In this document: in pieces, positions 10,490 to 22,855 of the stretch
How the letters are laid out: each line of letters begins with the position of its first letter
Numbering within the stretch: the first letter of the stretch is position 1
DNA from: a virus
Length of the DNA stretch: 25,357 nt
Virus genome (UHGV): UHGV-1360109
Strand: one strand, 5' to 3'
Made by a program: the position numbers and the translations under genes
Notes under the pieces: generated by a model
What the model saw: the letters and a program-made list of their open reading frames with translations, nothing else
The model's database searches: none
Told to the model about the DNA's origin: nothing

Positions 10490-11905
10490 ATGGCTACTTG
10501 GCAACAGGGTATTAATTCTGGTGGTTTTCTGGCTGGCATCGGTACGCAAAATGAGAATGCGCCAAAGGCAAGCGACATTAACGCAACGCTTGGTCTGATC
10601 CGCGAAAACAATGAACTGGCTCGATCAGGTGCAAATAACGTTGGTCTGACCGCGTTACGTGGTCTGGCTGGAGTTGCTGATATTTATAAGCAGGAACAGC
10701 AACAGAAAGCTATTAGTGCGTTCAATAAGGTTCACGCTGATGCATGGGCTTCTGGTGATCCATCGGGACTATTTAAGTTTGCCCAGGAAAATCCAGCGTT
10801 TGTTGCACAGGCACAACAGGCGTTTTCCGGTCTTAATGAGCAGCAACGCAACGATATGGGCGAGTTAGCCATGAGGGCTAACGTCGCTCTTTCTCAGGGA
10901 CCGGAAGCCTACAGTAAATTCATTACTGACAACAAGGACGGGTTAAATCGCGTGGGGGCGAATGCTGACTGGATGATTCAGACAGGTATCCAGAATCCAG
11001 AGCAGCTATCACACATGCTGACTACTATGTCTCTCGGTGCGCTTGGACCAGAAAAGGCGTTTGCTGTTCAGGATAAGATGGCTGGTCGTGAAATTGACCG
11101 AGGCAGGCTGGCAGAGACAATCCGCAGCAATCAGGCTGGAGAAGCACTTCAGGCGAGAGGGCAAAACCTTTCCTATCAGTCAGCAATGACTGGACACAAT
11201 ATCGCAGCACAACGCTTGGCTCTGGATCAGCAAGAGTTCGGGTTTAAGATGCAGCAAGCACAGGAAAAGGCTCAGCAGTTGATTAGCGAAGCACCTAAGC
11301 TGTCAGTAAACATGGAAAAAGGCATCGAGACGGCTGTAAACAATGCTACAGCATCATCAAACTCAGCCAATTCTATGAGTGCGCTTGCTCAACAGTTCAG
11401 AGCAGAAAAACCAACGACAGGTTTGTTCGGTAACGCACAGAACATGTTCGCAAAACTTACCGGAAGCGATACAACATTGCGTGATTTGCGCATCCGCCAA
11501 AATGCCCTTGTTAACAGTCAGGTTCTTAAATTCCTACCTCCCGGCCCCGCAACGGATAAAGACGTTGAGATCGTTCGGCAGGGTGCACCAACTGACATGG
11601 ATAACCCTGAGACGGTCGCAAGATGGCTTGATGCGATGGCAAACCTTGAGCGACGAAACGCGCAGTTTAATGAGTTTAAAGCCGAGTGGATGAGCGCGAA
11701 TGGCAATCCAGGACAATCGCGTAATGGCGGTCAGATATTGGGGTTGGATGTTAAAAAAGGTGAATCATTGGGGAGTGCCGTTAAGCGGTATATGTCAATG
11801 AATACTGACGCAGCGCCAGCACAAGATTCGACACCTTCAGGAGAACCACGGAATCAGGTTGGATCATATACCTCAAAATCAGGCATTCAATTTACGGTGG
11901 AATGA
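10490..11905 (+). CDS. ejection protein, P22 gp20-like
   Basis: 471 aa, the same length as P22 gp20; AAGGGG RBS; conserved order. Confidence 0.82.
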
Positions 11906-13743
11906 TGAAAGTAACTGCAAACGGTAAGACATTTACCTTTCCTGATGGTACGAGCACCGAAGATATTGGCACCGCCATTGATGAGTATTTTGCTGGTCAG
12001 GCTGTTCAGCAACAAACAGTTAATCAGGCCAATAATGCACCAACACGGGAAGAACCATCATTGATGCAACAAGCTGGCGATTGGCTCACTGGTGGTCAAA
12101 GTGCAGGGCAAATTGCAGAACAGGCTGGTCGTGGTCTGGTAAACATACCATTTGACGTATTGCAGGGCGGCGCAAGTCTGATTAATGCAATCAGCCAGGG
12201 GCTTGGTGGACCCAAGGTTTTGGATGATGTTTATCGTCCAGTAGACAGACCGACAGACCCCTACGCACAAGCCGGTGAAACAATTGGTGGGTATTTAGTT
12301 CCAGGAGTTGGAACGGCAGGAAGCATGGCTATTGGATCACTGGCAGAGGCCGCAAATCAGAAAGGCGATTTCGCACAAAATGCAGCTAAAAATGCCGGAG
12401 TTAACCTTGCCGCTCAGGGTGTTCTTTCCGCCGCAGCAAAGGGAATAGGGCGTGGAATAACGGCTATAAAAGGTGATATTGCGCCAGAAGTGGCGAAGAA
12501 AATTGCCACATCAGAATCGATGGGCGTGACACCAATGACATCTGATGTTATCCCGCCGAAAAATGCTTTCACTCGCGGCCTTACTCAGGATGCCGAGGGG
12601 GCTTTGCTCGGGACAGGCTCAAAGCGAGCGGAGCAATATGCAACGCGTAGTAAGCTGGTAAGTAATTATTTTGACCGTTTTGGTGAGTACAACCCTGATG
12701 ATGTAGTGAAATCTCTGACCACCACGTTAAGGGGGAGGAAGGATGCCGCTGGCGCTGTTATCAATGACGTCACCAATAAAATGGGTAATGCCGCAGTTGA
12801 TACCACAAATACCATGAATGCTCTGAATACAGCGATCGCAAGACAGGAACGACTTGGGACGTCTGCCAATCAAAGCCTGCTTACATCCTTGCGTAACCTA
12901 CGTGAAGAATTAGCAAACCCTGCAACTGATTTGGATGTTACGTTTGATCTCTTGCGTCAGCACAGAACAGCATTTAGATCTAATGTTCAGGGAGATGCTA
13001 TGGTCTTCCCCAACCAGGCAAAAGCAGCTACCAATATGGTAGAGAATGCAATGTCAAAAGACCTTCGTAACGCAGTTGCTAAAAACCTCGGTGCATCAGA
13101 CGCAGCAAAATACCTTAAAGCAAATTCCGATTATGCAAACGTTTATAATAAGGTGCTTAATAAAAACATTGCTAACAAACTCAACAAGGCAAGCAGTGAA
13201 GCCAGTCCTGAACTTATAAATACCGTTGTATTAAGCAGAAAACCATCTGACGTGAAACGAATCTGGAGCGCACTGGATGATAAAGGGAAAGATGCTATGC
13301 GTGCAGCTTACGTCAGCAAAATAGCGGAAAAGGCCGGTGACTCTCCAGCCAAGTTCATCACTGAAGTTAATAAGCTGAAATCTCAGTCAGGCGGTGAAAT
13401 TTACAACACTATTTTTTCTGGAAAGCACATGAAAGAACTTGATGCTCTTCATGAAGTTCTGCAGCAAACAGCAAGGTCAGACACCGCAAATGTAGTAACT
13501 CAGACGGGGCAATCGCAAGCCAACAGGATAAGGACGATTGGCGCAACTGCGACTCTTGGCGTATCAATGGGGCTTGAGGCTGGTTTCGGTGCAATGATGC
13601 GCTTGTATGAGTCCAAAGCAGCAAGGAATGCGCTCTTACGTCTGGCAAACACCAAAGCAGGAACACCAGCCTATGAAAGAGCGTTGAGTAACGCTGCAAA
13701 TGCCATCAGGCCGCTGCTTGCTACTGAGGCAACACAGCAGTAA
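11902..13743 (+). CDS. ejection protein, P22 gp16-like
   Basis: 613 aa; ATGA overlap with gp20; last gene of the ejection-protein trio. Confidence 0.82.
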
Positions 13744-13767: not shown

Positions 13768-14157
13768 TTAACATTTTCTTTTTACTTTTCCAACAAAAGC
13801 TTTGGTTGAATCCATATTCCCATAACCAGAAATGGTTTTTGACATTAAAACTGTTCCAGTAGGATGTATTACCCATGAGTCGATAACGCGTTGAGTTTCG
13901 CCATTCGCGCCGATTCCTATGATGGAGTTTTTAGACAATGCTTTGTAAGCCATGCCGCCCGCATCTGTCCCAGAATATGTGATGCTGGCATCTTCACCGC
14001 TTGTCTTAATGATGAATGTTCCACTAAAACCATCTTCTTCCGGATGGAAATTATTTCGTTCTGAATAGCTTATTCCGCGCATATCTCCAACGACCCAGCA
14101 CTCTGCTGTAGCCCCAAAAGATATGAATAAGAACATAGCAGCAAGAAATTGCTTCAC
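13768..14157 (-). CDS. small exported protein of unknown function (cargo gene)
   Basis: GTG start at 14157 preceded by a perfect TAAGGAGGT SD; N-terminus VKQFLAAMFLFISFGATA|EC is a signal peptide with an A-T-A signal-peptidase site; mature part has Cys near both ends; the longer ORF-track version (to 14373) has an implausible His/Cys-rich extension. Confidence 0.6.
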   Translation of the reverse strand: MKQFLAAMFLFISFGATAECWVVGDMRGISYSERNNFHPEEDGFSGTFIIKTSGEDASITYSGTDAGGMAYKALSKNSIIGIGANGETQRVIDSWVIHPTGTVLMSKTISGYGNMDSTKAFVGKVKRKC

Positions 14158-14187
14158 ACCAACCTCCTTAGTTTTGTGCAGGATACC

Positions 14188-14553
14188 ATGAAAAAAGTTA
14201 ACATTGGAAACGTACCAAAGATGCTCGTTCCGCTCTTTGAGAGCGGTACAATTGTGTTTTGTAGAGACTTTCCAGAATGGCAACGCCTGCATCAAAAACT
14301 TGGTGTGGACGTGCAGGACTCGGACGCCAACGGAGCGTCTCATACAATGAGCAGCGAGAATGGTGTTTTGCATGTGATAGGCGTGTTCAATGGCAAACTA
14401 TCTACTATTGCCCATGAGTGCGCTCACATGGCATTCGATATCTGCTCAAGGGTCGGTGTTGATGTTGAACCAGGAAGAGCCAACGAGACTTACTGCTACT
14501 TAATGAGCAGGCTTGTTGAGTTCTGCGAGCGACATATCAAAAAGCCGGAGTGA
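14188..14553 (+). CDS. small putative zinc metallopeptidase (HExxH motif), family unassigned
   Basis: 121 aa from ATG 14188 (MKKVNIGNVPKMLVPLFESG...); HECAH motif in IAHECAHMAFDICSRVGVDVEPGRANE with Glu 14 and 20 residues downstream; the ORF-track start at 14149 is a TTG. Confidence 0.55.
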   Translation: MKKVNIGNVPKMLVPLFESGTIVFCRDFPEWQRLHQKLGVDVQDSDANGASHTMSSENGVLHVIGVFNGKLSTIAHECAHMAFDICSRVGVDVEPGRANETYCYLMSRLVEFCERHIKKPE

Positions 14554-14566
14554 CCCGGCTTGATTA

Positions 14567-14746
14567 TTACTTTTTGCTGTCTGGAGTTCGCTTATCCAAT
14601 ACCCAGCCATGACCTGGCTTTGTTGTTGGTGGAAGCCTTTCGTTGTCCTTGACGGTGGCAAAATTGTCTTTCTTACCGCCGCGTGGGCCAACTTCTTGGT
14701 ATATTCCGCCGTTTTTTCCTGTGTTTTCACCTGGTTTTTTCGCCAT
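14567..14746 (-). CDS. YjzC-like small protein
   Basis: 59 aa (MAKKPGENTGKNGGIYQEVGPRGGKKDNFATVKDNERLPPTTKPGHGWVLDKRTPDSKK); the G..GIY.EVGP.GG ... LPPT ... W pattern resembles the YjzC-like family as I remember it; GAGGT RBS 7 nt upstream of ATG 14746. Confidence 0.55.
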   Translation of the reverse strand: MAKKPGENTGKNGGIYQEVGPRGGKKDNFATVKDNERLPPTTKPGHGWVLDKRTPDSKK

Positions 14747-14782
14747 GATATACCTCAACATGCACCCGTTATTGGGCGATTA

Positions 14783-14811
14783 AATATTGATCTCATTTTA
14801 TGAGTAGTCAA
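14783..14811 (-). promoter_or_regulatory. candidate sigma70 promoter for the YjzC-like gene with a dyad in the spacer
   Basis: On the minus strand: TTGACT (14811-14806), 17-bp spacer, AATATT (14788-14783); the spacer contains the palindrome CTCAT-TTT-ATGAG (14792-14804). Confidence 0.3.
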
Positions 14812-14837
14812 TATGGTCCAAAAAAGGTAAAAATTAA

Positions 14838-14859
14838 CCCACCGTCAGGTGGGTTTTTT
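14838..14859. terminator. bidirectional rho-independent terminator
   Basis: CCCACC-GTCA-GGTGGG hairpin; T-run on the plus strand (14854-14859) and a U-rich tract on the minus strand (complement of AAAAAGGTAAAAATTAA); lies about 25 nt downstream of the ClpP-like gene stop. Confidence 0.7.
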
Positions 14860-14884
14860 ATAAGGAGTAATCATGATTTACCCA

Positions 14885-15421
14885 TCAAACAACCCACCAG
14901 TTTGCCTGATTGGATGCCAGCCTTGCAGTTTTTATGGAATTAATTATGCCATGCTCAAGAGCCTTGTTAGCATCCAAAATGGTCGAGTCTGCTATCAGGG
15001 ATGCCCACCTAATATGGGTTCCGATGTCGATATTGAACGTCTCAACGAAGCGATCAAGATCGTTATCGAGGCATTTCCCGTACTCTCTCAATCTGGCATG
15101 GTCGGCGGCTGGGGAGGCAAAGCACCATAATAGAGGATGTAACAGGAATCTTGATAATGGGTTTGCGAAACGTTCTGAGCCAGCCAGGAAAACGATATTA
15201 GCTATGGATTCAACATTGCTTATGTTGTGAGTTCTAACGGTAACAGGGAGTGACTTAAGAAAGTTATACGCAGTAAAGCCAGCGGCAGTTTCCCCTCCCT
15301 GACTTGATATATGGATATTTAATTCAGTTGCGCCTTGAGATAATGCGGTGAGACAGTGGTTCTGAAGTTGCCCAACAGTGGCAGTGTTAACGGGGCATAA
15401 GAAATGAATTGTGTGCAGCAT
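14885..15421 (-). CDS. ClpP/SppA-fold serine peptidase homologue (cargo gene, co-transcribed with mnt)
   Basis: 178 aa; ELNIHISSQGGETAAGFTAYNFLKSLPVTVRTHNISNVESIANIVFLAGSERFANPLSRFLLHP aligns by eye with E. coli ClpP [67 protein letters not shown]; candidate nucleophile Ser and His are in place; start ATG shares one base with the mnt stop (TAATG). Confidence 0.75.
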   Translation of the reverse strand: MLHTIHFLCPVNTATVGQLQNHCLTALSQGATELNIHISSQGGETAAGFTAYNFLKSLPVTVRTHNISNVESIANIVFLAGSERFANPLSRFLLHPLLWCFASPAADHARLREYGKCLDNDLDRFVETFNIDIGTHIRWASLIADSTILDANKALEHGIINSIKTARLASNQANWWVV

Positions 15422-15675
15422 TATTTATCATCCTTGCCATAAATCTTTTTAAGTGTCTCAAACACAACGGCCTTGAACTGCTCTGCTTGCTGATCAGCCA
15501 AGCGTTCAGCTTCGTCTCGATAGCCTGCAATCGGTGATGGCTTTGAGAGAGCATCCTGAACGATTTGTAATAACTCAGAGTTCATTGACCTTCCGTTAGC
15601 CTCTGCTCTTAATTTCAATTTTTCTCTTACTTCCAAAGGCATACGGAAGTTAAAGTGCGGATCGTTTCTAGCCAT
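15421..15675 (-). CDS. mnt: Mnt repressor (ribbon-helix-helix)
   Basis: 84 aa; MARNDPHFNFRMPLEVREKLKLRAEANGRSMNSELLQIVQDALSKPSP closely resembles P22 Mnt; GGGGTGA RBS; divergent from arc across the operator region. Confidence 0.92.
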   Translation of the reverse strand: MARNDPHFNFRMPLEVREKLKLRAEANGRSMNSELLQIVQDALSKPSPIAGYRDEAERLADQQAEQFKAVVFETLKKIYGKDDK

Positions 15676-15697: not shown

Positions 15698-15751
15698 TTG
15701 ACATGATAGAAGCACTCTACTATGTTCTCAATAGGTCCACAGTGGACCTAT
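15698..15751. promoter_or_regulatory. immI control region: Pant promoter with arc and mnt operators
   Basis: TTGACA (15698-15703), 17-bp spacer, TATGTT (15721-15726); arc-operator-like ATGATAGAAGCACTCTACTAT (15703-15723); perfect 21-bp palindrome ATAGGTCCAC-A-GTGGACCTAT (15731-15751) matching the P22 mnt operator. Confidence 0.85.
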
Positions 15752-15765
15752 ATTGTGAGGTAAAT

Positions 15766-15924
15766 ATGAAAGGAATGAGCAAAATGCCGCAGTTCAATTT
15801 GCGGTGGCCTAAAGAAGTATTGGATTTGGTGCGTAAGGTGGCGGAAGAGAACGGGCGATCTGTTAACTCTGAGATTTACAAGCGAGTGTTGGACAGCCTG
15901 AAGAGAGAGGGGATAACGGTATGA
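15766..15924 (+). CDS. arc: Arc repressor (ribbon-helix-helix)
   Basis: 52 aa from ATG 15766 (MKGMSKMPQFNLRWPKEVLDLVRKVAEENGRSVNSEIYKRVLDSLKREGITV), close to P22 Arc; GAGG RBS; the ORF-track start at 15703 is an upstream extension running through the operators. Confidence 0.92.
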   Translation: MKGMSKMPQFNLRWPKEVLDLVRKVAEENGRSVNSEIYKRVLDSLKREGITV

Positions 15925-16142
15925 GGTTTATTGAGGTTGATGAGATTGGCTATGAGAATGCACTTGGTAGAGGTAAATCTTTAGTTAACATTGATGGCAT
16001 TGAATCGATAAGGAGTGGTGAATTTACGGAGATCAGAATGATGTCAGGCGGAATCATTCCTTGCCGTGATTCAGTAGAGTCAATCAAATCAAAAATGAGT
16101 GGTCAGTGGCTTTATAGCTACAGTGACTTACAAAAACAGTGA
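15921..16142 (+). CDS. small hypothetical protein inserted between arc and ant
   Basis: 73 aa; ATG 15921 overlaps the arc stop (ATGA); no family recognised; arc and ant are adjacent in P22. Confidence 0.5.
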   Translation: MRFIEVDEIGYENALGRGKSLVNIDGIESIRSGEFTEIRMMSGGIIPCRDSVESIKSKMSGQWLYSYSDLQKQ

Positions 16143-17229: not shown

Positions 17230-20175
17230 ATGACAGACATTACAGCCAATGTTGTGGTAAGCATGCCTTCGCAACTCTTCACTATGGCGCGTTCTTTTAA
17301 AGCCGTAGCTAATGGCAAAATTTATATCGGTAAAATTGACACTGATCCTGTAAATCCAGAAAACCAGATTCAGGTCTATGTGGAGAATGAAGACGGTTCT
17401 CACGTTCCTGTTTCGCAACCAATAATCATTAACGCTGCTGGATATTCTGTATATAACGGACAGATTGCCAAATTCGTTACCGTGCAAGGCCATTCTATGG
17501 CTGTTTATGATGCGTATGGTGCGCAGCAGTTCTATTTTCCTAATGTGCTGAAGTATGACCCTGATCAACTACGGCAGCAATTAGAAGACCCAGATGGAGC
17601 GAATAAATACCCAAAACTTCAGATAGCAAGATGGAGAGACAGTTATGATGTAAGAGGTTGGGGGGCTATTGGTGATGGTGTTCATGATGATACATCAGCT
17701 CTATCAGAATTACTTTCTGTTGCAACAGGTGGTGAAAAGATAGATGGGCGAGGGCTTACTTTTAAAGTATCAACTCTTCCGGATGTCAGTCGATTTAAAA
17801 ATGCTCGTTTTTTATTTGAGAGAATACCGGGCCAGCCTCTTTTTTATGCTTCTGAAGATTTTATCCAGGGAGAGTTATTTAAAATTACAGATACACCGTG
17901 GTACAACGCCTGGACGCAGGATAAAACGTTTGTATATGACAATGTCATCTATGCGCCTTTTATGGCTGGAGACCGCCATGGTGTAAATAACCTCCATGTT
18001 GCATGGGTTCGCTCAGGAGATGACGGGAAGACCTGGACAACGCCGGAATGGCTTACAGATTTACATGAAAACTATCCCACAGTTAACTATCACTGCATGA
18101 GTATGGGGGTTGTCAGAAATCGCCTTTTTGCTGTAATTGAGACGCGGACCGTGAGAGGAAATAAACTGCAGGTTGCAGAGTTGTGGGATCGCCCAATGAG
18201 TCGCAGCCTTCGCGTTTATGGTGGTATAACGAAAGCAGCAAATCAGCAAGTCGCTTATATTCGCATTACTGATCACGGATTATTTGCTGGTGATTTTGTC
18301 AACTTCTCAAACTCTGGTGTTACAGATGTTACCGGGAATATGACGGTGACTACTGTTATTGATAAAAATACCTTTACAGTTACGACGCAAAATACCCAGG
18401 ATGTGGATCAGAATAACGAGGGTAGATACTGGAGTTTTGGTACATCATTTCACTCGTCACCATGGAGAAAAACCAGTCTTGGAACTATTCCTTCTTTTGT
18501 TGACGGAAGCACTCCTGTTACTGAGATTCACAGTTTTGCGACGATTAGCGATAACAGTTTTGCTGTTGGCTACCATAATGGTGATATTGGTCCACGCGAG
18601 CTTGGGATACTCTATTTCTCTGATGCTTTCGGTTCTCCTGGTAGCTTTGTTCGCAGACGCATACCTGCAGAATATGAGGCGAATGCATCTGAGCCATGTG
18701 TAAAATATTATGATGGCATTCTGTATCTGACGACCAGGGGGACATTAAGTACTCAACCCGGTAGTTCATTGCACAGAAGCTCTGATTTAGGTACATCATG
18801 GAATTCTCTTCGCTTCCCAAATAATGTTCATCACTCAAACCTTCCTTTTGCCAAAGTTGGCGATGAGCTGATTATTTTTGGCAGTGAGCGCGCATTTGGT
18901 GAGTGGGAAGGAGGAGAACCTGATAACCGTTATGCAGGAAATTATCCAAGAACATTTATGACCAGAGTTAACGTCAATGAGTGGAGTCTGGATAATGTAG
19001 AGTGGGTTAATGTTACTGATCAGATTTATCAGGGCGGAATAGTTAACTCTGCGGTTGGTGTTGGTTCAGTTTGTATCAAAGACAACTGGCTGTACTACAT
19101 TTTCGGTGGGGAAGATTTTCTAAACCCATGGAGCATAGGGGATAACAACAGAAAATATCCTTATGTTCACGATGGTCACCCGGCTGATTTGTATTGTTTC
19201 AGGGTGAAAATTAAACAGGAAGAATTTGTTTCAAGGGATTTTGTCTACGGAGCCACTCCTAACAGAACGCTTCCTACTTTTATGTCGACGTCAGGCGTGA
19301 GGACGGTTCCTGTACCCGTTGATTTCACAGATGATGTTGCCGTCCAGTCACTGACTGTCCATGCAGGTACATCAGGACAAGTTCGCGCGGAAGTCAAACT
19401 TGAGGGTAATTACGCCATTATTGCGAAGAAAGTACCGTCTGATGATGTTACCGCTCAGAGATTAATCGTTAGCGGCGGTGAAACAACGTCTTCAGCAGAT
19501 GGTGCAATGATAACGTTGCATGGTTCCAGAAGCAGTACTCCACGTCGCGCGGTATATAACGCACTCGAACATCTTTTTGAGAACGGAGATGTTAAACCTT
19601 ATCTTGATAATGTAAATGCTCTTGGTGGTCCGGGAAACAGGTTCTCGATAGTTTATCTTGGCTCCAATCCTGTGGTTACCAGTGACGGAACATTAAAGAC
19701 AGAGCCGGTCTCTCCTGACGAAACATTGCTGGATGCCTGGGGTGACGTCAGGTATATCGCTTATAAATGGCTGAACGCTGTCGCTATAAAGGGGGAAGAA
19801 GGGGCGAGGATACATCATGGTGTAATCGCGCAGCAACTTCGTGATGTTCTTATTTCTCACGGACTCATGGAAGAAGAAAGCACAACATGCCGCTATGCGT
19901 TTCTTTGCTATGACGATTATCCCGCAGTATATGATGACGTCATTACTGGCCAAAGGGAAATGCCGCTGACTGATAATGACGGGAGCATCATTGTTGATGA
20001 GGATGATAATCCAGTGATGGTAATGGAAGACATCATTGAGCGCGTTGAAATAACGCCAGCAGGATCTAGATGGGGGGTCAGGCCTGATCTCTTATTCTAT
20101 ATCGAGGCGGCATGGCAGCGCAGAGAAATGGATAAGATAAAAGCTAGGTTAGACTTAATAGAAGGGAAGCACTAA
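17230..20175 (+). CDS. tailspike: P22 gp9-like head-binding N-terminus fused to an endosialidase body with a C-terminal intramolecular chaperone domain
   Basis: 981 aa; first ~110 aa ([59 protein letters not shown]...[15 protein letters not shown]...VLKYDPDQ) match the P22 tailspike N-terminus; Asp-box motifs SGDDGKTW and SSDLGTSW; TSDGTLK near the C-terminal ~160 aa fits the Ser-Lys auto-cleaving chaperone pattern; GGAG RBS. Confidence 0.88.
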
Positions 20176-20321
20176 ATGTTTCGTTGGCGTCAAAAATATG
20201 AACTGCTCACATAAAGAAGTAAGTACATTGGCAAAAAACATTGACGTCAACGAAATTAAATATAAAACATCATGCAGACATATTACCAATATTAATATAA
20301 GGTAATAAAAATATAATTTAC

Positions 20322-20348
20322 AAAAAAGGCCCGTTGGAAGCGACGGGC
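20322..20348 (-). terminator. minus-strand rho-independent terminator beyond attP (possible tI/sib analogue)
   Basis: Minus strand reads GCCCGT-CGCTTCCA-ACGGGC followed by CTTTTTT; sits where leftward transcripts through int and att would end. Confidence 0.5.
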
Positions 20349-20654
20349 ATTAACCGCGGTAATGGATAAATTATTAATGTTTTTAGATTGTGAACGATAT
20401 CATATTGTGCGGAAGTAGTGAAGTAACCATGTAAAATGATTGTTTCATAGCCTATGAGACACACAAGGCTTTGTGCTCTTCGATAGTTGTTAAGGCGGAT
20501 CACTCTACCTTCTCATCAATCCAGTCCGCCCCCACTGCATCATTTCTCTGCGCTTATCGAGATACTGAGCATGGTTGTAAATTCAACTAACCCAGTCCGT
20601 TGACAAAAAATTAGCGCAAGAGGACAAAAAATCACCTTGCGCTAATGCTCTGCC

Positions 20655-20885
20655 TCAGGTCACTAATACTATCTAAGTAGTTGATTCATAGTGACTGGAT
20701 ATGTTGTGTTTTGTCGCGTTTTGCAGTCTATTATTTAATCATTAAGTAATCTAATACTATGATTTTTAAATTATTTATGTGGTTTTGTCATCCTTAAGGT
20801 GAATAAGTTGTATATTTAAAATATCTTTTGTTATCAATGAATTAATGTAAGCAGGTCATTATTAGTCAAAATAAAATCATTTGTC
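20655..20885. other. lambda-like attP region (arm-type Int sites); core not pinpointed
   Basis: CAGGTCACTAATACTATCTAAGTAGTTGATTCATAGTGACTGGATATGTTGTGTTTT (P arm) and AGGTCATTATTAGTCAAAATAAAATCATTTG (P' arm, overlapping the int 3' end) closely match lambda attP arm sequences; the central ~100 bp differs from lambda. Confidence 0.7.
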
Positions 20886-21950
20886 GATTTCAATTTTGTC
20901 CCATTCCCGTCCACGGCTGTCCCTATACCGCGCCGCCATTGAATCTGATTTATGCCCGAGAAGACGTTGAGCAAACTTATCGCCAATCTGGTTCCGGTAT
21001 AGCCTCGCTGACAGGCTACGCAGTTCATGGAATGTTGGCGGGTTTCCATCAAATGAGAGTCCAGATGCATTTCTCGCCTTTGTAAAATACTTTGATACTG
21101 TTTTCGGGGAAAGCGGATCGTGATGCTTTGATGCGATTATAGTTTCACTGCTGCTGGCCTCCCTGCATTTCTGTAGTGTATCAGCCAATGAGATATTGAG
21201 CGCGTCAATCGTTAGCGTTAGCGGAATGGCGAGTTTAGCCCCTGTTTTACTCTGTTCAATGTGAAGATGGTTGTCGTTTATGTCTGACCATTTCATTCTG
21301 CACAAATCGCCGACTCTCTGCCCTGTAACGACGGCCAAATCCATCGCCAGCCTTAGCCAGATAGGGAGAGGTTCGGCTGCATGGTAAATCTCGACATACT
21401 CATTAGCTGTCAGCCTTGAGCGCCTTACTTCTGACTTTGCTGTACGGGTTGCTGTTACCGGATTCGTTGCCACATGCCCCTCGGCTATTGCTTCACGAAA
21501 AACGTCAACAAGGGTTGACCTGATTAATTTTGCGGAAGCTGCTTTACCTTCCGCTACGTAGGTGTTTAGCATTGCTGCCACATCTTTCGTTGATATGTCA
21601 GTGAGCGGTTTGTCCGGCAATTTTCTTCGGATTGCCCTGATTTTGCTGGCGTAGTCGAGTAGAGTTTTCGGCCTGATCCCCCTTTCGGTGAGGATTCTTT
21701 CATATCGGTCAAGCCACACATGAAGAGTGATTGCGTCACCGCCTTTAATTCTGTCTATCAGTGATTTGCGTCCGCTGTCTGAGAGTAACTCAATATTGGC
21801 CTGTATTGCTTCAGTGATTGCTATCCTCCTGTCTCGGCCTAATCCAAACTCTTTACCCGTCCTTGGGTCCCTGTAGCAGTAATATCCATTGTTTCTTATA
21901 TAAAGGTTAGGGGGTAAATCCCGGCGCTCATGACTTCGCCTTCTTCCCAT
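20877..21950 (-). CDS. int: integrase, lambda Int family tyrosine recombinase
   Basis: 357 aa; N-terminus MGRRRSHERRDLPPNLYIRNNGYYCYRDPRTGKEFGLGRDRRIAITEAIQAN and C-terminus HELRSLSARLY...LLGHKSD...YRD.RGREWDKIEI match lambda Int as I recall it. Confidence 0.95.
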   Translation of the reverse strand: MGRRRSHERRDLPPNLYIRNNGYYCYRDPRTGKEFGLGRDRRIAITEAIQANIELLSDSGRKSLIDRIKGGDAITLHVWLDRYERILTERGIRPKTLLDYASKIRAIRRKLPDKPLTDISTKDVAAMLNTYVAEGKAASAKLIRSTLVDVFREAIAEGHVATNPVTATRTAKSEVRRSRLTANEYVEIYHAAEPLPIWLRLAMDLAVVTGQRVGDLCRMKWSDINDNHLHIEQSKTGAKLAIPLTLTIDALNISLADTLQKCREASSSETIIASKHHDPLSPKTVSKYFTKARNASGLSFDGNPPTFHELRSLSARLYRNQIGDKFAQRLLGHKSDSMAARYRDSRGREWDKIEIDK

Positions 21951-22146
21951 TTCTGATCCTCTTCAAAAGGCTACCTGTTACTGGTCGATTTAAGTCAACC
22001 TTTACCGCTGATTCGTGGAACAGATACTCTCTTCCATCCTTAACCGGAGGAGGGAATATCCTGCATTCGCGCACCCATCGACGAACTGTTTCAAGGCTTC
22101 TTGGGCGTCGCTGGCGAGCGTTCCACTCCTGAAGTGTCAAGTACAT
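21928..22146 (-). CDS. xis: excisionase
   Basis: 72 aa (MYLTLQEWNARQRRPRSLETVRRWVRECRIFPPPVKDGREYLFHESAVKVDLNRPVTGSLLKRIRNGKKAKS), essentially lambda Xis; overlaps the int start as in lambda. Confidence 0.95.
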   Translation of the reverse strand: MYLTLQEWNARQRRPRSLETVRRWVRECRIFPPPVKDGREYLFHESAVKVDLNRPVTGSLLKRIRNGKKAKS

Positions 22147-22203
22147 CGCAAAGTCTCCGCAATTACTCGCAAGGGAACGAGTAGTGGTTGATTTTTCTCC
22201 AAC

Positions 22204-22223
22204 AAAAAAGGAGCCGAAGCTCC
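22204..22223 (-). terminator. minus-strand rho-independent terminator between the antirepressor-like gene and xis
   Basis: Minus strand reads GGAGC-TTCG-GCTCC followed by TTTTTTG. Confidence 0.6.
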
Positions 22224-22231
22224 TTTGATGA

Positions 22232-22855
22232 TTAAAATTCGAATTGTCTCGCCCGAAGGCTTTTCAACATTGGTCTTGCCCGTTCGAAAACGGCGCTTGC
22301 CTGGTCAAGTCGTGTCGCCTCCCTGAGCAGTACATCTCTGTTTTTCGTCACCGCATAGAAGGTTTCAAACGCAATGTCATACAGCTTACTCGCGTATGAT
22401 GAGTTAAGTTCCTTCATTATCGGGTACAGGCGTTTGCAGATGTCCTGTGCATTCTCCATCTGTACCTGCATGTAGCAGAGGAGGATGATTTCCTCGTCTG
22501 TGAATTGCTGCGCTGGTTGCATGCTGCGAAGTTTCTTTTCGCACTCGATGAAGTATCGGCGTATCTGGCGGCCTTTTTCGTTGCGCTCGACCATCGCAGT
22601 TTCTTTGGCCGTATCGAGGGTGAGGTGATAGTCTTTGCTACGGCGATCGCCTCCTCGACCTTTGATTTCCCGATTTGGGGAAACCAAAATATAGTCCTGA
22701 TTTTCAACGAAACCATATTCAGCAATGCGTTCTGTAATCCACGATGCAAAGCGTTTACCTACCCCAAGAAAAGTATGTAAATCGCGAGCATTAACGAGAA
22801 GAGTGGTTTCGTTGGCGATAGTGCCGTTGAATACGGGGATGAGTTGAATAGCCAT
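22232..22855 (-). CDS. antirepressor-like protein (Bro-N/AntA-type N-terminal domain)
   Basis: 207 aa from ATG 22855 with AGGAG 9 nt upstream; N-terminus MAIQLIPVFNGTIANETTLLVNARDLHTFLGVGKRFASWITERIAEYGFVENQDYI resembles phage AntA/Bro-N domains; ORF-track start at 22891 is a longer alternative. Confidence 0.65.
   Translation of the reverse strand: MAIQLIPVFNGTIANETTLLVNARDLHTFLGVGKRFASWITERIAEYGFVENQDYILVSPNREIKGRGGDRRSKDYHLTLDTAKETAMVERNEKGRQIRRYFIECEKKLRSMQPAQQFTDEEIILLCYMQVQMENAQDICKRLYPIMKELNSSYASKLYDIAFETFYAVTKNRDVLLREATRLDQASAVFERARPMLKSLRARQFEF

What the first reader, a model, noticed from the sequence alone, without database searches (positions are those of the whole stretch)
13768..15421. 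Four-gene cargo island in the gene16-mnt slot, where P22 carries sieA
Between the last ejection gene (ends 13743) and mnt lie four genes with no virion role: an exported protein (-), a small HExxH protein (+), a YjzC-like protein (-) and a ClpP-fold peptidase homologue (-). In P22 this position holds sieA and hkcC (superinfection exclusion). Three of the four are on the lysogen-expressed strand, each with its own RBS, so a prophage-encoded exclusion or defence function is a reasonable hypothesis. The combination is not one I can map to a named system.
Basis: partly seen in the sequence, partly recalled or inferred. Interest (0 to 1): 0.8.

Follow-up and report, generated by a model that had tools for sequence, protein, structure and literature searches.

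The report
Mosaic cargo in P22-family "ant moron"
The four genes are real but do not form one system: two are genes that phage P22 itself carries, and the other two are separate swappable prophage cargo genes (a periplasmic barrel protein in the sieA position and a shortened ClpP-type protease attached to the mnt repressor gene), all inside an already described fast-changing region of P22-like phages.

Summary
All four ORFs exist at the stated coordinates in a CUS-3-like P22-family prophage. The "four-gene island replacing sieA" reading is only partly right.

- **HExxH gene (14188-14553, +):** this is hkcC. It is 100% amino-acid identical to an unannotated P22 ORF.
- **YjzC-like gene (14567-14746, -):** this is P22 orf59a.
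- **Exported protein (13768-14157, -):** this is new relative to P22. It replaces sieA exactly from the shared GTG start codon, behind an invariant PsieA/RBS "socket".
- **ClpP-like gene (14885-15421, -):** this is also new relative to P22. Its ATG overlaps the mnt stop codon, and it lies upstream of the retained mnt terminator.

The genes lie in at least three transcription units separated by two bidirectional terminators, and they assort independently. In 5,426 complete E. coli genomes they occur in 147 (exported protein), 132 (hkcC+orf59a) and 128 (ClpP-like), and all four together in none. No PADLOC model matches any of them.

The ClpP-like protein belongs to the family of the solved, N-terminally truncated Pseudomonas "ClpP1" (PDB 9UXT). 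That protein cannot bind ClpX but forms mixed complexes with canonical ClpP.

The interval is the published "ant moron". Prophage expression of the two cargo genes is well supported. A defence role is untested. Interest is modest.

The parts
11902..13743 (+). Gene 16 homologue (613 aa ejection/DNA-transfer protein). This is the left boundary of the interval.
   Evidence: ORF. It aligns with P22 gp16 (shared N-terminus [21 protein letters not shown], and, 3' end). Same-length neighbours of gene A in L027-L031 are tagged PF26808 Phage_P22_gp16.
13768..14157 (-). Gene A: a 129-aa exported protein that occupies the sieA position. It has a signal peptide, and the mature part starts near ECWVVG. The model is a roughly 10-strand beta-barrel, and invariant N- and C-terminal cysteines could form a disulfide clamp.
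14158..14243 (-). Conserved PsieA-RBS-GTG "expression socket". The P22 PsieA promoter corresponds to about 14188-14218, and the RBS is TAAGGAGG.
   Evidence: About 100 nt are invariant in window, P22, HK620 and ETEC1747 up to and including the GTG. P22 annotates a promoter at 13861-13891. In P22, 85 bp upstream of the start is sufficient for sieA function (PMC10883804).
14188..14553 (+). Gene B = hkcC: 121 aa, with the HExxH...NE motif and a predicted zincin-like fold. It lies on the late-operon strand, and its first codons overlap PsieA on the other strand.
14542..14561 (.). Bidirectional hairpin terminator between B and C (tORF59A of HK620; annotated as the 'mnt terminator' in P22).
   Evidence: Terminator scan on both strands. 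Folding gives -12.6 and -12.1 kcal/mol, z -3.3 and -3.7. Annotations.
14567..14746 (-). Gene C = orf59a / hkcD: a 59-aa basic, Gly/Lys-rich protein that is weakly YjzC-like.
   Evidence: One amino-acid difference from P22 orf59a. phrog_3202 E=1e-31. Pfam YjzC 19.1 bits, below the cut-off of 25.
14783..14811 (-). Promoter-like site upstream of C (TTGACT-17-AATATT).
   Evidence: Consensus scan only, 9 of 12 matches. It lies within the stretch shared with P22.
14836..14855 (.). Bidirectional hairpin terminator (tMNT), retained downstream of D. In P22 the mnt stop codon sits inside this hairpin.
   Evidence: -13.6 kcal/mol, z -3.5. The alignment with P22 shows AACCACCTGACGGCGGGTTAATTTTT at the mnt 3' end. 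HK620 annotates it as tMNT.
14885..15421 (-). Gene D: a 178-aa N-terminally truncated ClpP-family protein of the PpClpP1 / PDB 9UXT type. Its ATG overlaps the mnt stop codon (TAATG).
   Evidence: Pfam CLP_protease 44.4 bits. 9UXT matches at E=1.6e-35 over the full length. S72 and H95 are invariant, the ClpP Asp185 position is Ser here and varies in the family, and the N-terminal part of E. coli ClpP that carries the axial loops is absent. The junction is shown.
15421..15675 (-). mnt (84 aa), the first gene of the mnt-D transcription unit. This is the right boundary of the interval.
   Evidence: Pfam Arc plus Repressor_Mnt. Promoter-like Pmnt at 15731-15703 and Pant at 15698-15726, the same layout as in P22.

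Best explanation
The interval is the left half of the P22-family "ant moron". It is a recombination-prone cargo region made of four independently transcribed, independently assorting modules, not one system.

1. **Conserved core, also present in P22 and HK620.** hkcC (B) is a small HExxH, zincin-like protein on the late-operon strand. orf59a (C) is a small basic protein with its own promoter-like site. The two are separated by a bidirectional terminator.

2. **Slot 1.** A conserved PsieA-RBS-GTG socket is embedded in the 5' end of hkcC. Different phages have different envelope-protein ORFs attached exactly at the start codon: SieA in P22, HkcB in HK620 and CUS-3, and here gene A.
 - A is exported to the periplasm by a signal peptide and folds as a small soluble beta-barrel. 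Invariant cysteines at the two ends of the mature protein could form a disulfide clamp.
 - I infer that A is made in the lysogen and acts in the envelope as a binding or blocking protein. It may act against incoming P22-like DNA-delivery proteins (a functional analogue of SieA) or against periplasm-acting enzymes or toxins (like the Rap1a/Tai immunity proteins it shares an operon with elsewhere).

3. **Slot 2.** This position lies directly after mnt, and the cassette's ATG overlaps the mnt stop codon. Here it holds D, a ClpP-family protein without the N-terminal gating and docking loops and without the catalytic Asp.
 - By homology with the solved PpClpP1, I infer that D forms an open-pore 14-mer that cannot bind ClpX or ClpA on its own. 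It may stack with host ClpP rings and change Clp-dependent proteolysis in the lysogen.

**Shown:** the anatomy, the homologies, the junctions, the independence of the modules and the family memberships.
**Inferred:** expression in the lysogen, periplasmic location, oligomer formation and every physiological role.
For: **Identity of the region.**
- The window is a CUS-3/phiv205-1-like Lederbergvirus prophage.
- PMC2629481 names the interval between genes 16 and 9 the "ant moron", describes it as in rapid flux, and lists sieA, hkcC and 59a for P22.

**B and C are P22 genes.**

**Slot 1.**
- The socket is invariant up to the GTG, and the sequences diverge completely after it.
- In P22, 85 bp of upstream sequence suffices for sieA function from a single copy.

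**Slot 2.**
- The ClpP-like, Rap1a/Tai and 105-aa exported cassettes all start on the mnt stop codon.
- D stays at least 97% identical while the adjacent mnt allele varies from 36 to 100% identity.

**Separate transcription units.** Two hairpin terminators and separate promoter-like sites divide the interval.

**Independent assortment.**
- A is in 147, B+C in 132 and D in 128 of 5,426 genomes, and none has all four contiguous.
- The alternative neighbours vary widely.

**D behaves as a lone cargo gene elsewhere.**
- It sits alone in Klebsiella, Proteus and Chromobacterium prophages of other types.
- 92 IMG/VR stretches encode a relative. In 23 of 45 distant loci D is antiparallel to both neighbours, and in 40 of 45 it is convergent with the downstream one.

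**D is of the 9UXT type.**, with the properties described in PMC12900304.

**A is exported and found in related settings.**
- Signal peptide, conserved cysteines and a confident beta-barrel model.
- A also occurs in mnt-Rap1a-A operons.
- A 30%-identical relative again abuts a gp16-family gene.
- Most occupants of both slots are membrane or exported proteins.
Against: - There are no expression data for this prophage. PsieA did not reach the threshold of the consensus promoter scan, so its activity rests on identity with P22.
- D is only about 45% identical to PpClpP1. Formation of a mixed complex with E. coli ClpP is extrapolated, not tested.
- All four genes do occur together in two IMG/VR contigs, L060 and L086, so the combination is rare rather than unique. 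A functional interaction between neighbours cannot be formally excluded.
Confidence: 0.8

Rival explanations
1. One reading: the four genes form one prophage-encoded exclusion or defence system whose components work together, for example a protease, a metalloprotease, a small adaptor and an exported effector.
For: - The genes are adjacent, and three lie on the prophage-expressed strand.
- The position is the one that holds sieA in P22.
- Two IMG/VR contigs carry all four.
- Two of the proteins have protease-like motifs.
Against: - B and C are present in P22 and HK620 without A or D.
- Every sub-combination exists: A+B+C, B+C+D, A+D and Rap1a+A.
- 0 of 5,426 complete E. coli genomes have all four.
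- Two terminators and opposite strands split the genes into separate transcription units.
- D occurs alone in unrelated prophage types.
- There are no PADLOC hits.
Confidence: 0.04
2. Gene A is specifically a new, periplasmic superinfection-exclusion factor. It would block the gp20/gp16 trans-periplasmic DNA-delivery conduit of incoming P22-like phages, making it a functional replacement for the inner-membrane protein SieA.
For: - A uses the sieA promoter, RBS and start codon.
- A lies 24 nt from the gene 16 stop in the window and in L027-L031.
- A 30%-identical relative lies 3 nt from a gp16-family gene in a different phage.
- SieA acts on gp16 and gp20, and only a third of P22-like phages carry sieA (PMC10883804).
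Against: - A has no similarity to SieA and no transmembrane helices.
- A also sits away from the socket, downstream of a Rap1a/Tai immunity gene. That setting suggests protection against periplasmic toxins instead.
- Family members occur in chromosomal, non-phage contexts.
Confidence: 0.25
3. Gene D is a free-standing anti-phage protease. It would be a domesticated ClpP-type prohead protease expressed in the lysogen that degrades proteins of superinfecting phages, such as ejected, scaffold or capsid proteins. P22-like heads need no maturation protease and would be spared.
For: - D scores better against phage head-maturation protease families than against cellular ClpP (phrog_94 E=7e-21; NCBIfam Clp_rel_HeadMat E=5e-13).
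- It lies outside any head gene cluster and is a lone antiparallel gene in several prophage types.
- The Ser and His are invariant.
Against: - D scores far below the curated cut-off for head-maturation proteases (49 vs 120 bits).
- The closest characterised relative, 9UXT, has low intrinsic activity, degraded no protein substrate on its own, and works through canonical ClpP.
- There are no PADLOC hits, and no literature on such a defence was found.
Confidence: 0.12
4. A and D are neutral hitch-hikers or decaying remnants with no current function. The interval would simply record past recombination.
For: - The ant moron is known for rapid flux and contains degraded genes in some phages (PMC2629481).
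- The particular combination here is rare.
Against: - Both ORFs are intact and highly conserved. The exact D protein is listed in 7,904 index blocks and the exact A protein in 1,281.
- Both families keep full length and invariant key residues down to about 25-50% identity.
- Both keep precise expression junctions.
Confidence: 0.08

Closest known systems
The "ant moron" / immI-flanking region of P22-like phages (Villafane, Casjens et al. 2008, PMC2629481)
   Same: Same location between genes 16 and 9, and no role in morphogenesis. It contains mnt-arc-ant plus variable genes of unknown function, and P22's version lists sieA, hkcC and 59a. It is described as being in rapid flux, with ten types in sixteen genomes.
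   Different: This particular allele set (A in the sieA position, the ClpP-like gene after mnt) was not described there. The start-codon-precise sockets at both slots are documented here.
P22 SieA (inner-membrane superinfection exclusion protein; Leavitt et al. 2024, PMC10883804)
   Same: Gene A uses the identical promoter, RBS and GTG, and the same position and strand next to gene 16. Both products go to the envelope.
   Different: There is no sequence similarity. SieA has about four transmembrane helices and a cytoplasmic FxRYPxEAxxFNK motif. A has only a cleavable signal peptide and a soluble beta-barrel. A's function is untested.
Pseudomonas plecoglossicida ClpP1 (PDB 9UXT; Chen et al. 2026, PMC12900304)
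   Same: Full-length homology to D (E=1.6e-35). Both lack the N-terminal axial loops, keep the catalytic Ser and His, and have a non-Asp residue at the third triad position. The lengths are similar (183 vs 178 aa).
   Different: Identity is about 45%. The third residue is Pro in PpClpP1 and Ser in D. PpClpP1 was treated as a chromosomal paralogue, whereas D is prophage cargo coupled to mnt. Tetradecamer formation, mixing with host ClpP and activity are unknown for D.
Canonical ClpP (E. coli ClpP, MEROPS S14)
   Same: ClpP/crotonase fold domain (Pfam PF00574), with the Ser and His in the same positions.
   Different: D has no N-terminal loops for ClpX/ClpA docking and pore gating and no catalytic Asp. 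It scores 19 bits against the clpP equivalog cut-off of 308.6 bits. The RefSeq name "ATP-dependent Clp protease proteolytic subunit" overstates what is known.
HK620 hkcB / hkcC / hkcD (Clark et al. 2001, annotation AF335538)
   Same: B corresponds to hkcC and C to hkcD/orf59a. The bidirectional terminator and the socket are the same.
   Different: HK620 has hkcB (N-terminal transmembrane helix plus coiled coil) in slot 1, and only remnants of mnt and ant, so it has no slot 2 cassette.
Rap1a/Tai periplasmic immunity proteins carried in the same slot of other prophages
   Same: Small exported proteins that start on the mnt stop codon (slot 2) and often sit in one operon with gene A.
   Different: They are unrelated in sequence to A and D. 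Whether A is an immunity protein is unknown.

Membership tests
P22-family "ant moron" (region between genes 16 and 9) | Lies between the gene 16 and gene 9 (tailspike) homologues of a P22-like late operon | tested here: met
   The gene 16 homologue ends at 13743, and the tailspike with a P22 head-binding domain starts at 17230. The window matches CUS-3 and phiv205-1.
P22-family "ant moron" (region between genes 16 and 9) | Contains immI genes (mnt, arc, ant) plus variable non-morphogenetic genes that differ between related phages | tested here: met
   Pfam Arc/Repressor_Mnt, Arc and P22_AR_N/C hits. Alternative contents are seen in P22, HK620, CUS-3, phiv205-1 and about 30 prophage loci.
Canonical ClpP (ATP-dependent Clp protease proteolytic subunit) | Pfam CLP_protease domain above the gathering score | tested here: met
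   44.4 bits against a cut-off of 20.2.
Canonical ClpP (ATP-dependent Clp protease proteolytic subunit) | Ser-His-Asp catalytic triad | tested here: not met
   S72 and H95 align with ClpP S111 and H136 and are invariant. The Asp185 column is Ser in D and A/S/other in the family.
Canonical ClpP (ATP-dependent Clp protease proteolytic subunit) | N-terminal axial loops / hairpin that gate the pore and dock ClpX/ClpA | tested here: not met
   D begins where E. coli ClpP is already past its N-terminal region, so that whole region has no counterpart. The homologue 9UXT lacks the loops and does not bind ClpX.
Canonical ClpP (ATP-dependent Clp protease proteolytic subunit) | Reaches the NCBIfam clpP equivalog cut-off | tested here: not met
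   TIGR00493: 19.2 bits against 308.6. The best ClpP model reaches 40 bits against 228.
Truncated ClpP1 type (PpClpP1, PDB 9UXT) | Full-length sequence homology to 9UXT | tested here: met
   phmmer E=1.6e-35, residues 3-175 against 4-179. The family profile gives E=1.3e-50.
Truncated ClpP1 type (PpClpP1, PDB 9UXT) | N-terminal truncation plus Ser-His with a non-Asp third residue | tested here: met
   The Pro of PpClpP1 aligns with Ser in D.
Truncated ClpP1 type (PpClpP1, PDB 9UXT) | Homotetradecamer with a wide pore; heterotetradecamer with canonical ClpP | not testable with these tools
   Shown only for PpClpP1 (PMC12900304).
ClpP-related phage head maturation protease | Reaches the curated score; fused to or adjacent to scaffold/capsid genes in the head module | tested here: not met
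   NF045542: 49.3 bits against 120. NF045540: 49.4 bits against 475. The gene lies in the ant moron on the opposite strand from the head genes.
SieA superinfection exclusion protein | Position between genes 16 and 9, behind PsieA | tested here: met
   The upstream sequence including the GTG is identical to P22.
SieA superinfection exclusion protein | Multi-pass inner-membrane protein with the FxRYPxEAxxFNK motif; homology to SieA types A, B or C | tested here: not met
   A has one N-terminal hydrophobic segment only, where P22 SieA has four. A lacks the motif and shows no similarity after the start codon.
Known anti-phage defence systems (PADLOC-DB v2) | Any component matches a PADLOC model | tested here: not met
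   No families at E<=1 for any of the four proteins.
Zincin/gluzincin metallopeptidase (gene B) | HExxH on a helix plus a downstream third ligand (Glu); zincin fold | tested here: inconclusive
YjzC-like (PF14168, gene C) | Reaches the Pfam gathering score | tested here: not met
   19.1 bits against a cut-off of 25, E=0.0017. The resemblance is plausible but membership is not established.

The most novel reading that the evidence does not exclude
The most novel reading concerns D. N-terminally truncated, Asp-less ClpP proteins of the 9UXT type would be a widespread family of prophage cargo genes rather than housekeeping paralogues.

- In E. coli P22-like prophages the gene is translationally coupled to the Mnt maintenance repressor.
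- Its product would stack with host ClpP rings and re-programme ClpXP/ClpAP proteolysis in lysogens, for the benefit of the prophage. Possible benefits are stabilising lysogeny (for example by removing antirepressor) or destroying proteins of incoming phages.

In parallel, the PsieA-RBS-GTG socket would be a general plug-in site for envelope-acting exclusion or immunity proteins, with gene A as a new periplasmic one.
Probability: 0.25. Interest if true: 0.6.

Novelty: new member of a known kind. Interest (0 to 1): 0.3.

Why it matters
As found, this is mainly a correction. The interval is a new allele combination of a described mosaic region, not a new multi-gene system, and two of its genes are old P22 genes.

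Three points are useful to specialists:
1. Cargo exchange happens at two start-codon-precise expression sockets. One lies behind PsieA and the other on the mnt stop codon. This gives a simple rule for finding prophage-expressed cargo in P22-like phages.
2. RefSeq names the ClpP-like cargo gene "ATP-dependent Clp protease proteolytic subunit". It lacks the ClpX/ClpA-docking N-terminus and belongs with the recently solved ClpP1 type that works through canonical ClpP. It is present in about 2% of complete E. coli genomes and in K1-type prophages, and its effect on host proteolysis is untested.
3. The exported barrel protein is a cheap candidate to test for exclusion or immunity, using the assays already set up for SieA.

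Tried and rejected
- **PADLOC scan** of all four proteins: nothing found.
- **Pfam and NCBIfam for A and B:** nothing meaningful. Pfam scans of 62 A-family and 17 B-family members were also empty, apart from one SprT-like hit at E=0.055.
- **PDB sequence search for A and B:** nothing found.
- **Fold searches.**
  - A against BFVD gave TM<0.5 and no named hits.
  - The afdb50 library was unavailable.
- **Literature searches** for a ClpP-like prophage cargo or defence gene, and for hkcC/hkcB/orf59a function, found no functional study.
- **A as an outer-membrane mini-barrel:** considered and rejected. The mature protein of about 110 aa is too short, it ends in Cys rather than an aromatic residue, and it has terminal cysteines.
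- **A and B as a protease-inhibitor pair:** considered and rejected. B has no signal peptide, A is exported, and the two occur apart.
- **Is PpClpP1 itself prophage-borne?** IMG/VR holds only 42-49% identical relatives, so this stays open. The expensive genome-contig scan was not used for this side question.
- **CUS-3 neuO heptanucleotide repeats** downstream of the tailspike: none found in 20100-22500.
Full report
**1. What is in the sequence**

The window is a P22-family (Lederbergvirus) prophage. Its closest relatives are E. coli phages phiv205-1 and CUS-3, at about 62% coverage and 96% identity. It carries a K1-type endosialidase tailspike at 17230-20175.

- **A, 13768-14157 (-).** 129 aa counted from a GTG start. 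The 201-aa ORF in the mechanical ORF list is an upstream overextension.
- **B, 14188-14553 (+).** 121 aa, with an HExxH motif.
- **C, 14567-14746 (-).** 59 aa counted from MAKK.
- **D, 14885-15421 (-).** 178 aa, with a Pfam CLP_protease match at 44.4 bits.

PHROGs places A, B and C in families of unknown function (phrog_2651, phrog_1365, phrog_3202) and D nearest to ClpP-type head-maturation proteases. PADLOC finds nothing for any of the four. The observation itself is therefore real.

**2. Two of the four genes are P22's own genes**

Comparison with P22 (NC_002371) shows a 709-bp stretch of 97.7% identity that runs from window 14155 to 14862.

- Within it, P22 has an intact but unannotated ORF whose product is 100% identical to B.
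- It also has orf59a, which differs from C by one residue.
- HK620 annotates a 121-aa gene, hkcC, in the same position and on the same strand, and notes a possible "HkcD, similar to P22" where orf59a sits. A bidirectional terminator lies between the two.
[quoted passage not shown] It names the whole interval between genes 16 and 9 the "ant moron", "in a state of rapid flux", with ten types in sixteen genomes (PMC2629481).

Relative to P22, only A and D are different.

**3. Two start-codon-precise cargo slots**

*Slot 1.* I aligned the minus strand upstream of A with P22, HK620 and an ETEC prophage.

- About 100 nt are invariant. This stretch includes the annotated PsieA, the RBS TAAGGAGG and the GTG start codon.
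- Immediately after the GTG the sequences become unrelated: A, sieA or hkcB.
- In P22, 85 bp upstream of that start codon is sufficient for single-copy sieA to exclude P22 (PMC10883804).
- The socket lies inside the 5' end of hkcC on the other strand, which probably explains why it is conserved.

*Slot 2.* D's ATG overlaps the mnt stop codon (TAATG).

- In other prophages a Rap1a/Tai immunity gene, or a 105-aa exported protein, starts on the mnt stop in the same way (ATGA).
- In P22 the mnt stop codon sits inside a hairpin terminator. In the window the same hairpin (14836-14855) is retained downstream of D.
- In 36 IMG/VR loci with a close copy of D, D stays at least 97% identical while the mnt allele directly upstream varies from 36 to 100% identity. 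That pattern indicates repeated exchange at this junction.

**4. The four genes are not one unit**

- Two hairpin terminators (14542-14561 and 14836-14855, both folding much better than shuffled controls) and the strand switch at B split the interval. The units are mnt-D, C (with its own promoter-like site at 14811-14783), A (behind PsieA), and B on the late-operon strand.
- In 5,426 complete E. coli genomes, A is present in 147, B+C in 132 and D in 128. No record covers 80% of the four-gene interval.
- A+B+C without D, B+C+D without A, A+D without B and C, and mnt-Rap1a-A without B, C or D all exist.
- Two IMG/VR contigs do carry all four genes, with about 270 bp extra between C and D. The combination is therefore rare, not unique.
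- Other versions of the region carry YafO-like, PIN, SocA/Panacea, P63C or Rap1a genes.

**5. Gene D**

The D family covers Enterobacterales and Chromobacterium (68 clusters).

- Outside E. coli it sits alone in other prophage types. In Klebsiella it lies between the lysis genes and terminase, in Proteus next to N, and in Chromobacterium between tail-fibre and lysis genes.
- IMG/VR holds 92 stretches that encode a relative. In the 45 distant loci among those kept, D is convergent with its downstream neighbour in 40 and antiparallel to both neighbours in 23 (crude ORF calls).
- Ser72 and His95 (ClpP S111 and H136) are invariant. The Asp185 position is Ser in D and varies in the family. The N-terminal part of ClpP that carries the axial loops is missing.
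- A profile search of the PDB finds a full-length relative, 9UXT (E=1.3e-50 for the profile, 1.6e-35 for D alone), far ahead of canonical ClpPs at about 1e-12.
- 9UXT is Pseudomonas plecoglossicida "ClpP1". It is a homotetradecamer with a 42.7 Å pore and a Ser-His-Pro arrangement. Its peptidase activity is low and it does not bind ClpX. It forms a stable, more active heterotetradecamer with canonical ClpP (PMC12900304). That paper does not consider a phage origin.
- By homology, D most likely forms a similar open-pore particle that can act only through, or together with, host ClpP. This is inference.
- The RefSeq product name overstates what is known. D scores 19 bits against the clpP equivalog cut-off of 308.6 bits.

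**6. Gene A**

- A has a signal peptide. Cys20 is invariant and the C-terminal Cys is nearly invariant.
- The AF2 model is confident (pLDDT 85.5) and shows a roughly 10-strand beta-barrel. Fold searches return only generic barrels.
- A profile search finds 119 clusters of similar small exported proteins, none covered by Pfam.
- A also occurs downstream of Rap1a/Tai in mnt operons, with a different signal peptide.
- A relative at 30% identity again lies 3 nt from a gp16-family gene in another phage. Other relatives are chromosomal.
- Most occupants of both slots are membrane or exported proteins.
- The best-supported statement is that A is a prophage-expressed periplasmic binding or blocking protein. 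Whether it excludes phage DNA delivery, or neutralises periplasmic enzymes or toxins, cannot be decided here.

**7. Genes B and C**

- B keeps H76, E77, H80, N99 and E100 invariant down to 43% identity. Its model is confident, and its weak structural neighbours include zincin-like proteins. Neither Pfam nor the PDB confirms the assignment.
- B lies in the sense direction of the late operon. According to PMC2629481, late transcription reads through this region to reach the tailspike gene. B is therefore more likely a lytic-phase gene than a lysogenic one.
- C is a small basic protein that is only weakly YjzC-like.

**8. Verdict**

- The interval is a new allele combination of a known mosaic region.
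- Prophage expression of A and D is well grounded in conserved junctions. A defence role is plausible but untested. The idea of a four-gene system is not supported.
- Novelty: a new member of a known kind.
- Interest is modest. It rests mainly on the ClpP1-type cargo gene coupled to mnt and on the plug-in sockets.

Noticed in passing
L001 (P22 NC_002371) 2535-2899 = P22 13862-14226; window 14188-14553: The P22 reference records (NC_002371, BK000583) do not annotate hkcC. An intact ORF there encodes a protein 100% identical to the window's 121-aa HExxH protein.
   Followed up: yes
window 15921-16142 (+): A 73-aa ORF whose ATG overlaps the arc stop codon sits between arc and ant, where P22 has the sar antisense RNA. 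It has no Pfam hit and recurs in other E. coli prophages (for example L002 5580-5801, and 73-aa genes in L044 and L046). Control of ant may differ from P22 here.
   Followed up: partly
L015 2426-2815 (-) (E. coli ETEC1747, WP_001363901): The RefSeq start of this copy of gene A is placed at an internal Met (104 aa), which drops the signal peptide. The full ORF starts 75 nt upstream (MKLIIAMAFLVFSFSVSAEC...).
   Followed up: yes
L017-L020, L023, L040-L048 (ant morons of other E. coli prophages): The same region in other prophages carries toxin-antitoxin-like or defence-like cargo: YafO-like toxin plus a 188-aa protein, a PIN-domain protein plus a 239-aa protein, SocA/Panacea plus a 160-aa protein, P63C, and Rap1a/Tai immunity proteins. 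The ant moron looks like a general hotspot for prophage-expressed accessory genes.
   Followed up: partly
L049-L084 (IMG/VR loci with D at 94% identity or more): D is nearly invariant (at least 97% identical where the hit is full-length), while the mnt-family gene directly upstream ranges from 36 to 100% identity to the window's Mnt. This implies recombination exactly at the junction between the mnt stop and the D start.
   Followed up: partly
L032 5001-5405 (+) and 5409-9497 (-): A 30%-identical relative of gene A lies 3 nt from the end of an unusually long (1362 aa) gp16-family gene in a different phage. The link between the A family and gene 16 persists at low identity.
   Followed up: no
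PDB 9UXT / PMC12900304: The only characterised member of D's family, PpClpP1, was analysed as a chromosomal ClpP paralogue. Every family member whose genomic context I inspected lies in a prophage, and IMG/VR holds 92 further relatives. Whether PpClpP1 itself lies in a prophage could not be determined; IMG/VR holds only relatives at 42-49% identity.
   Followed up: partly
L003 3776-4195 (+) (E. coli SMN013SH2): In this prophage hkcC and orf59a are replaced by a 139-aa lipoprotein (lipobox LSGC, weak PEGA-domain hit) on the late-operon strand, between gene A and the ClpP-like gene. The hkcC-orf59a core is therefore not universal either.
   Followed up: partly
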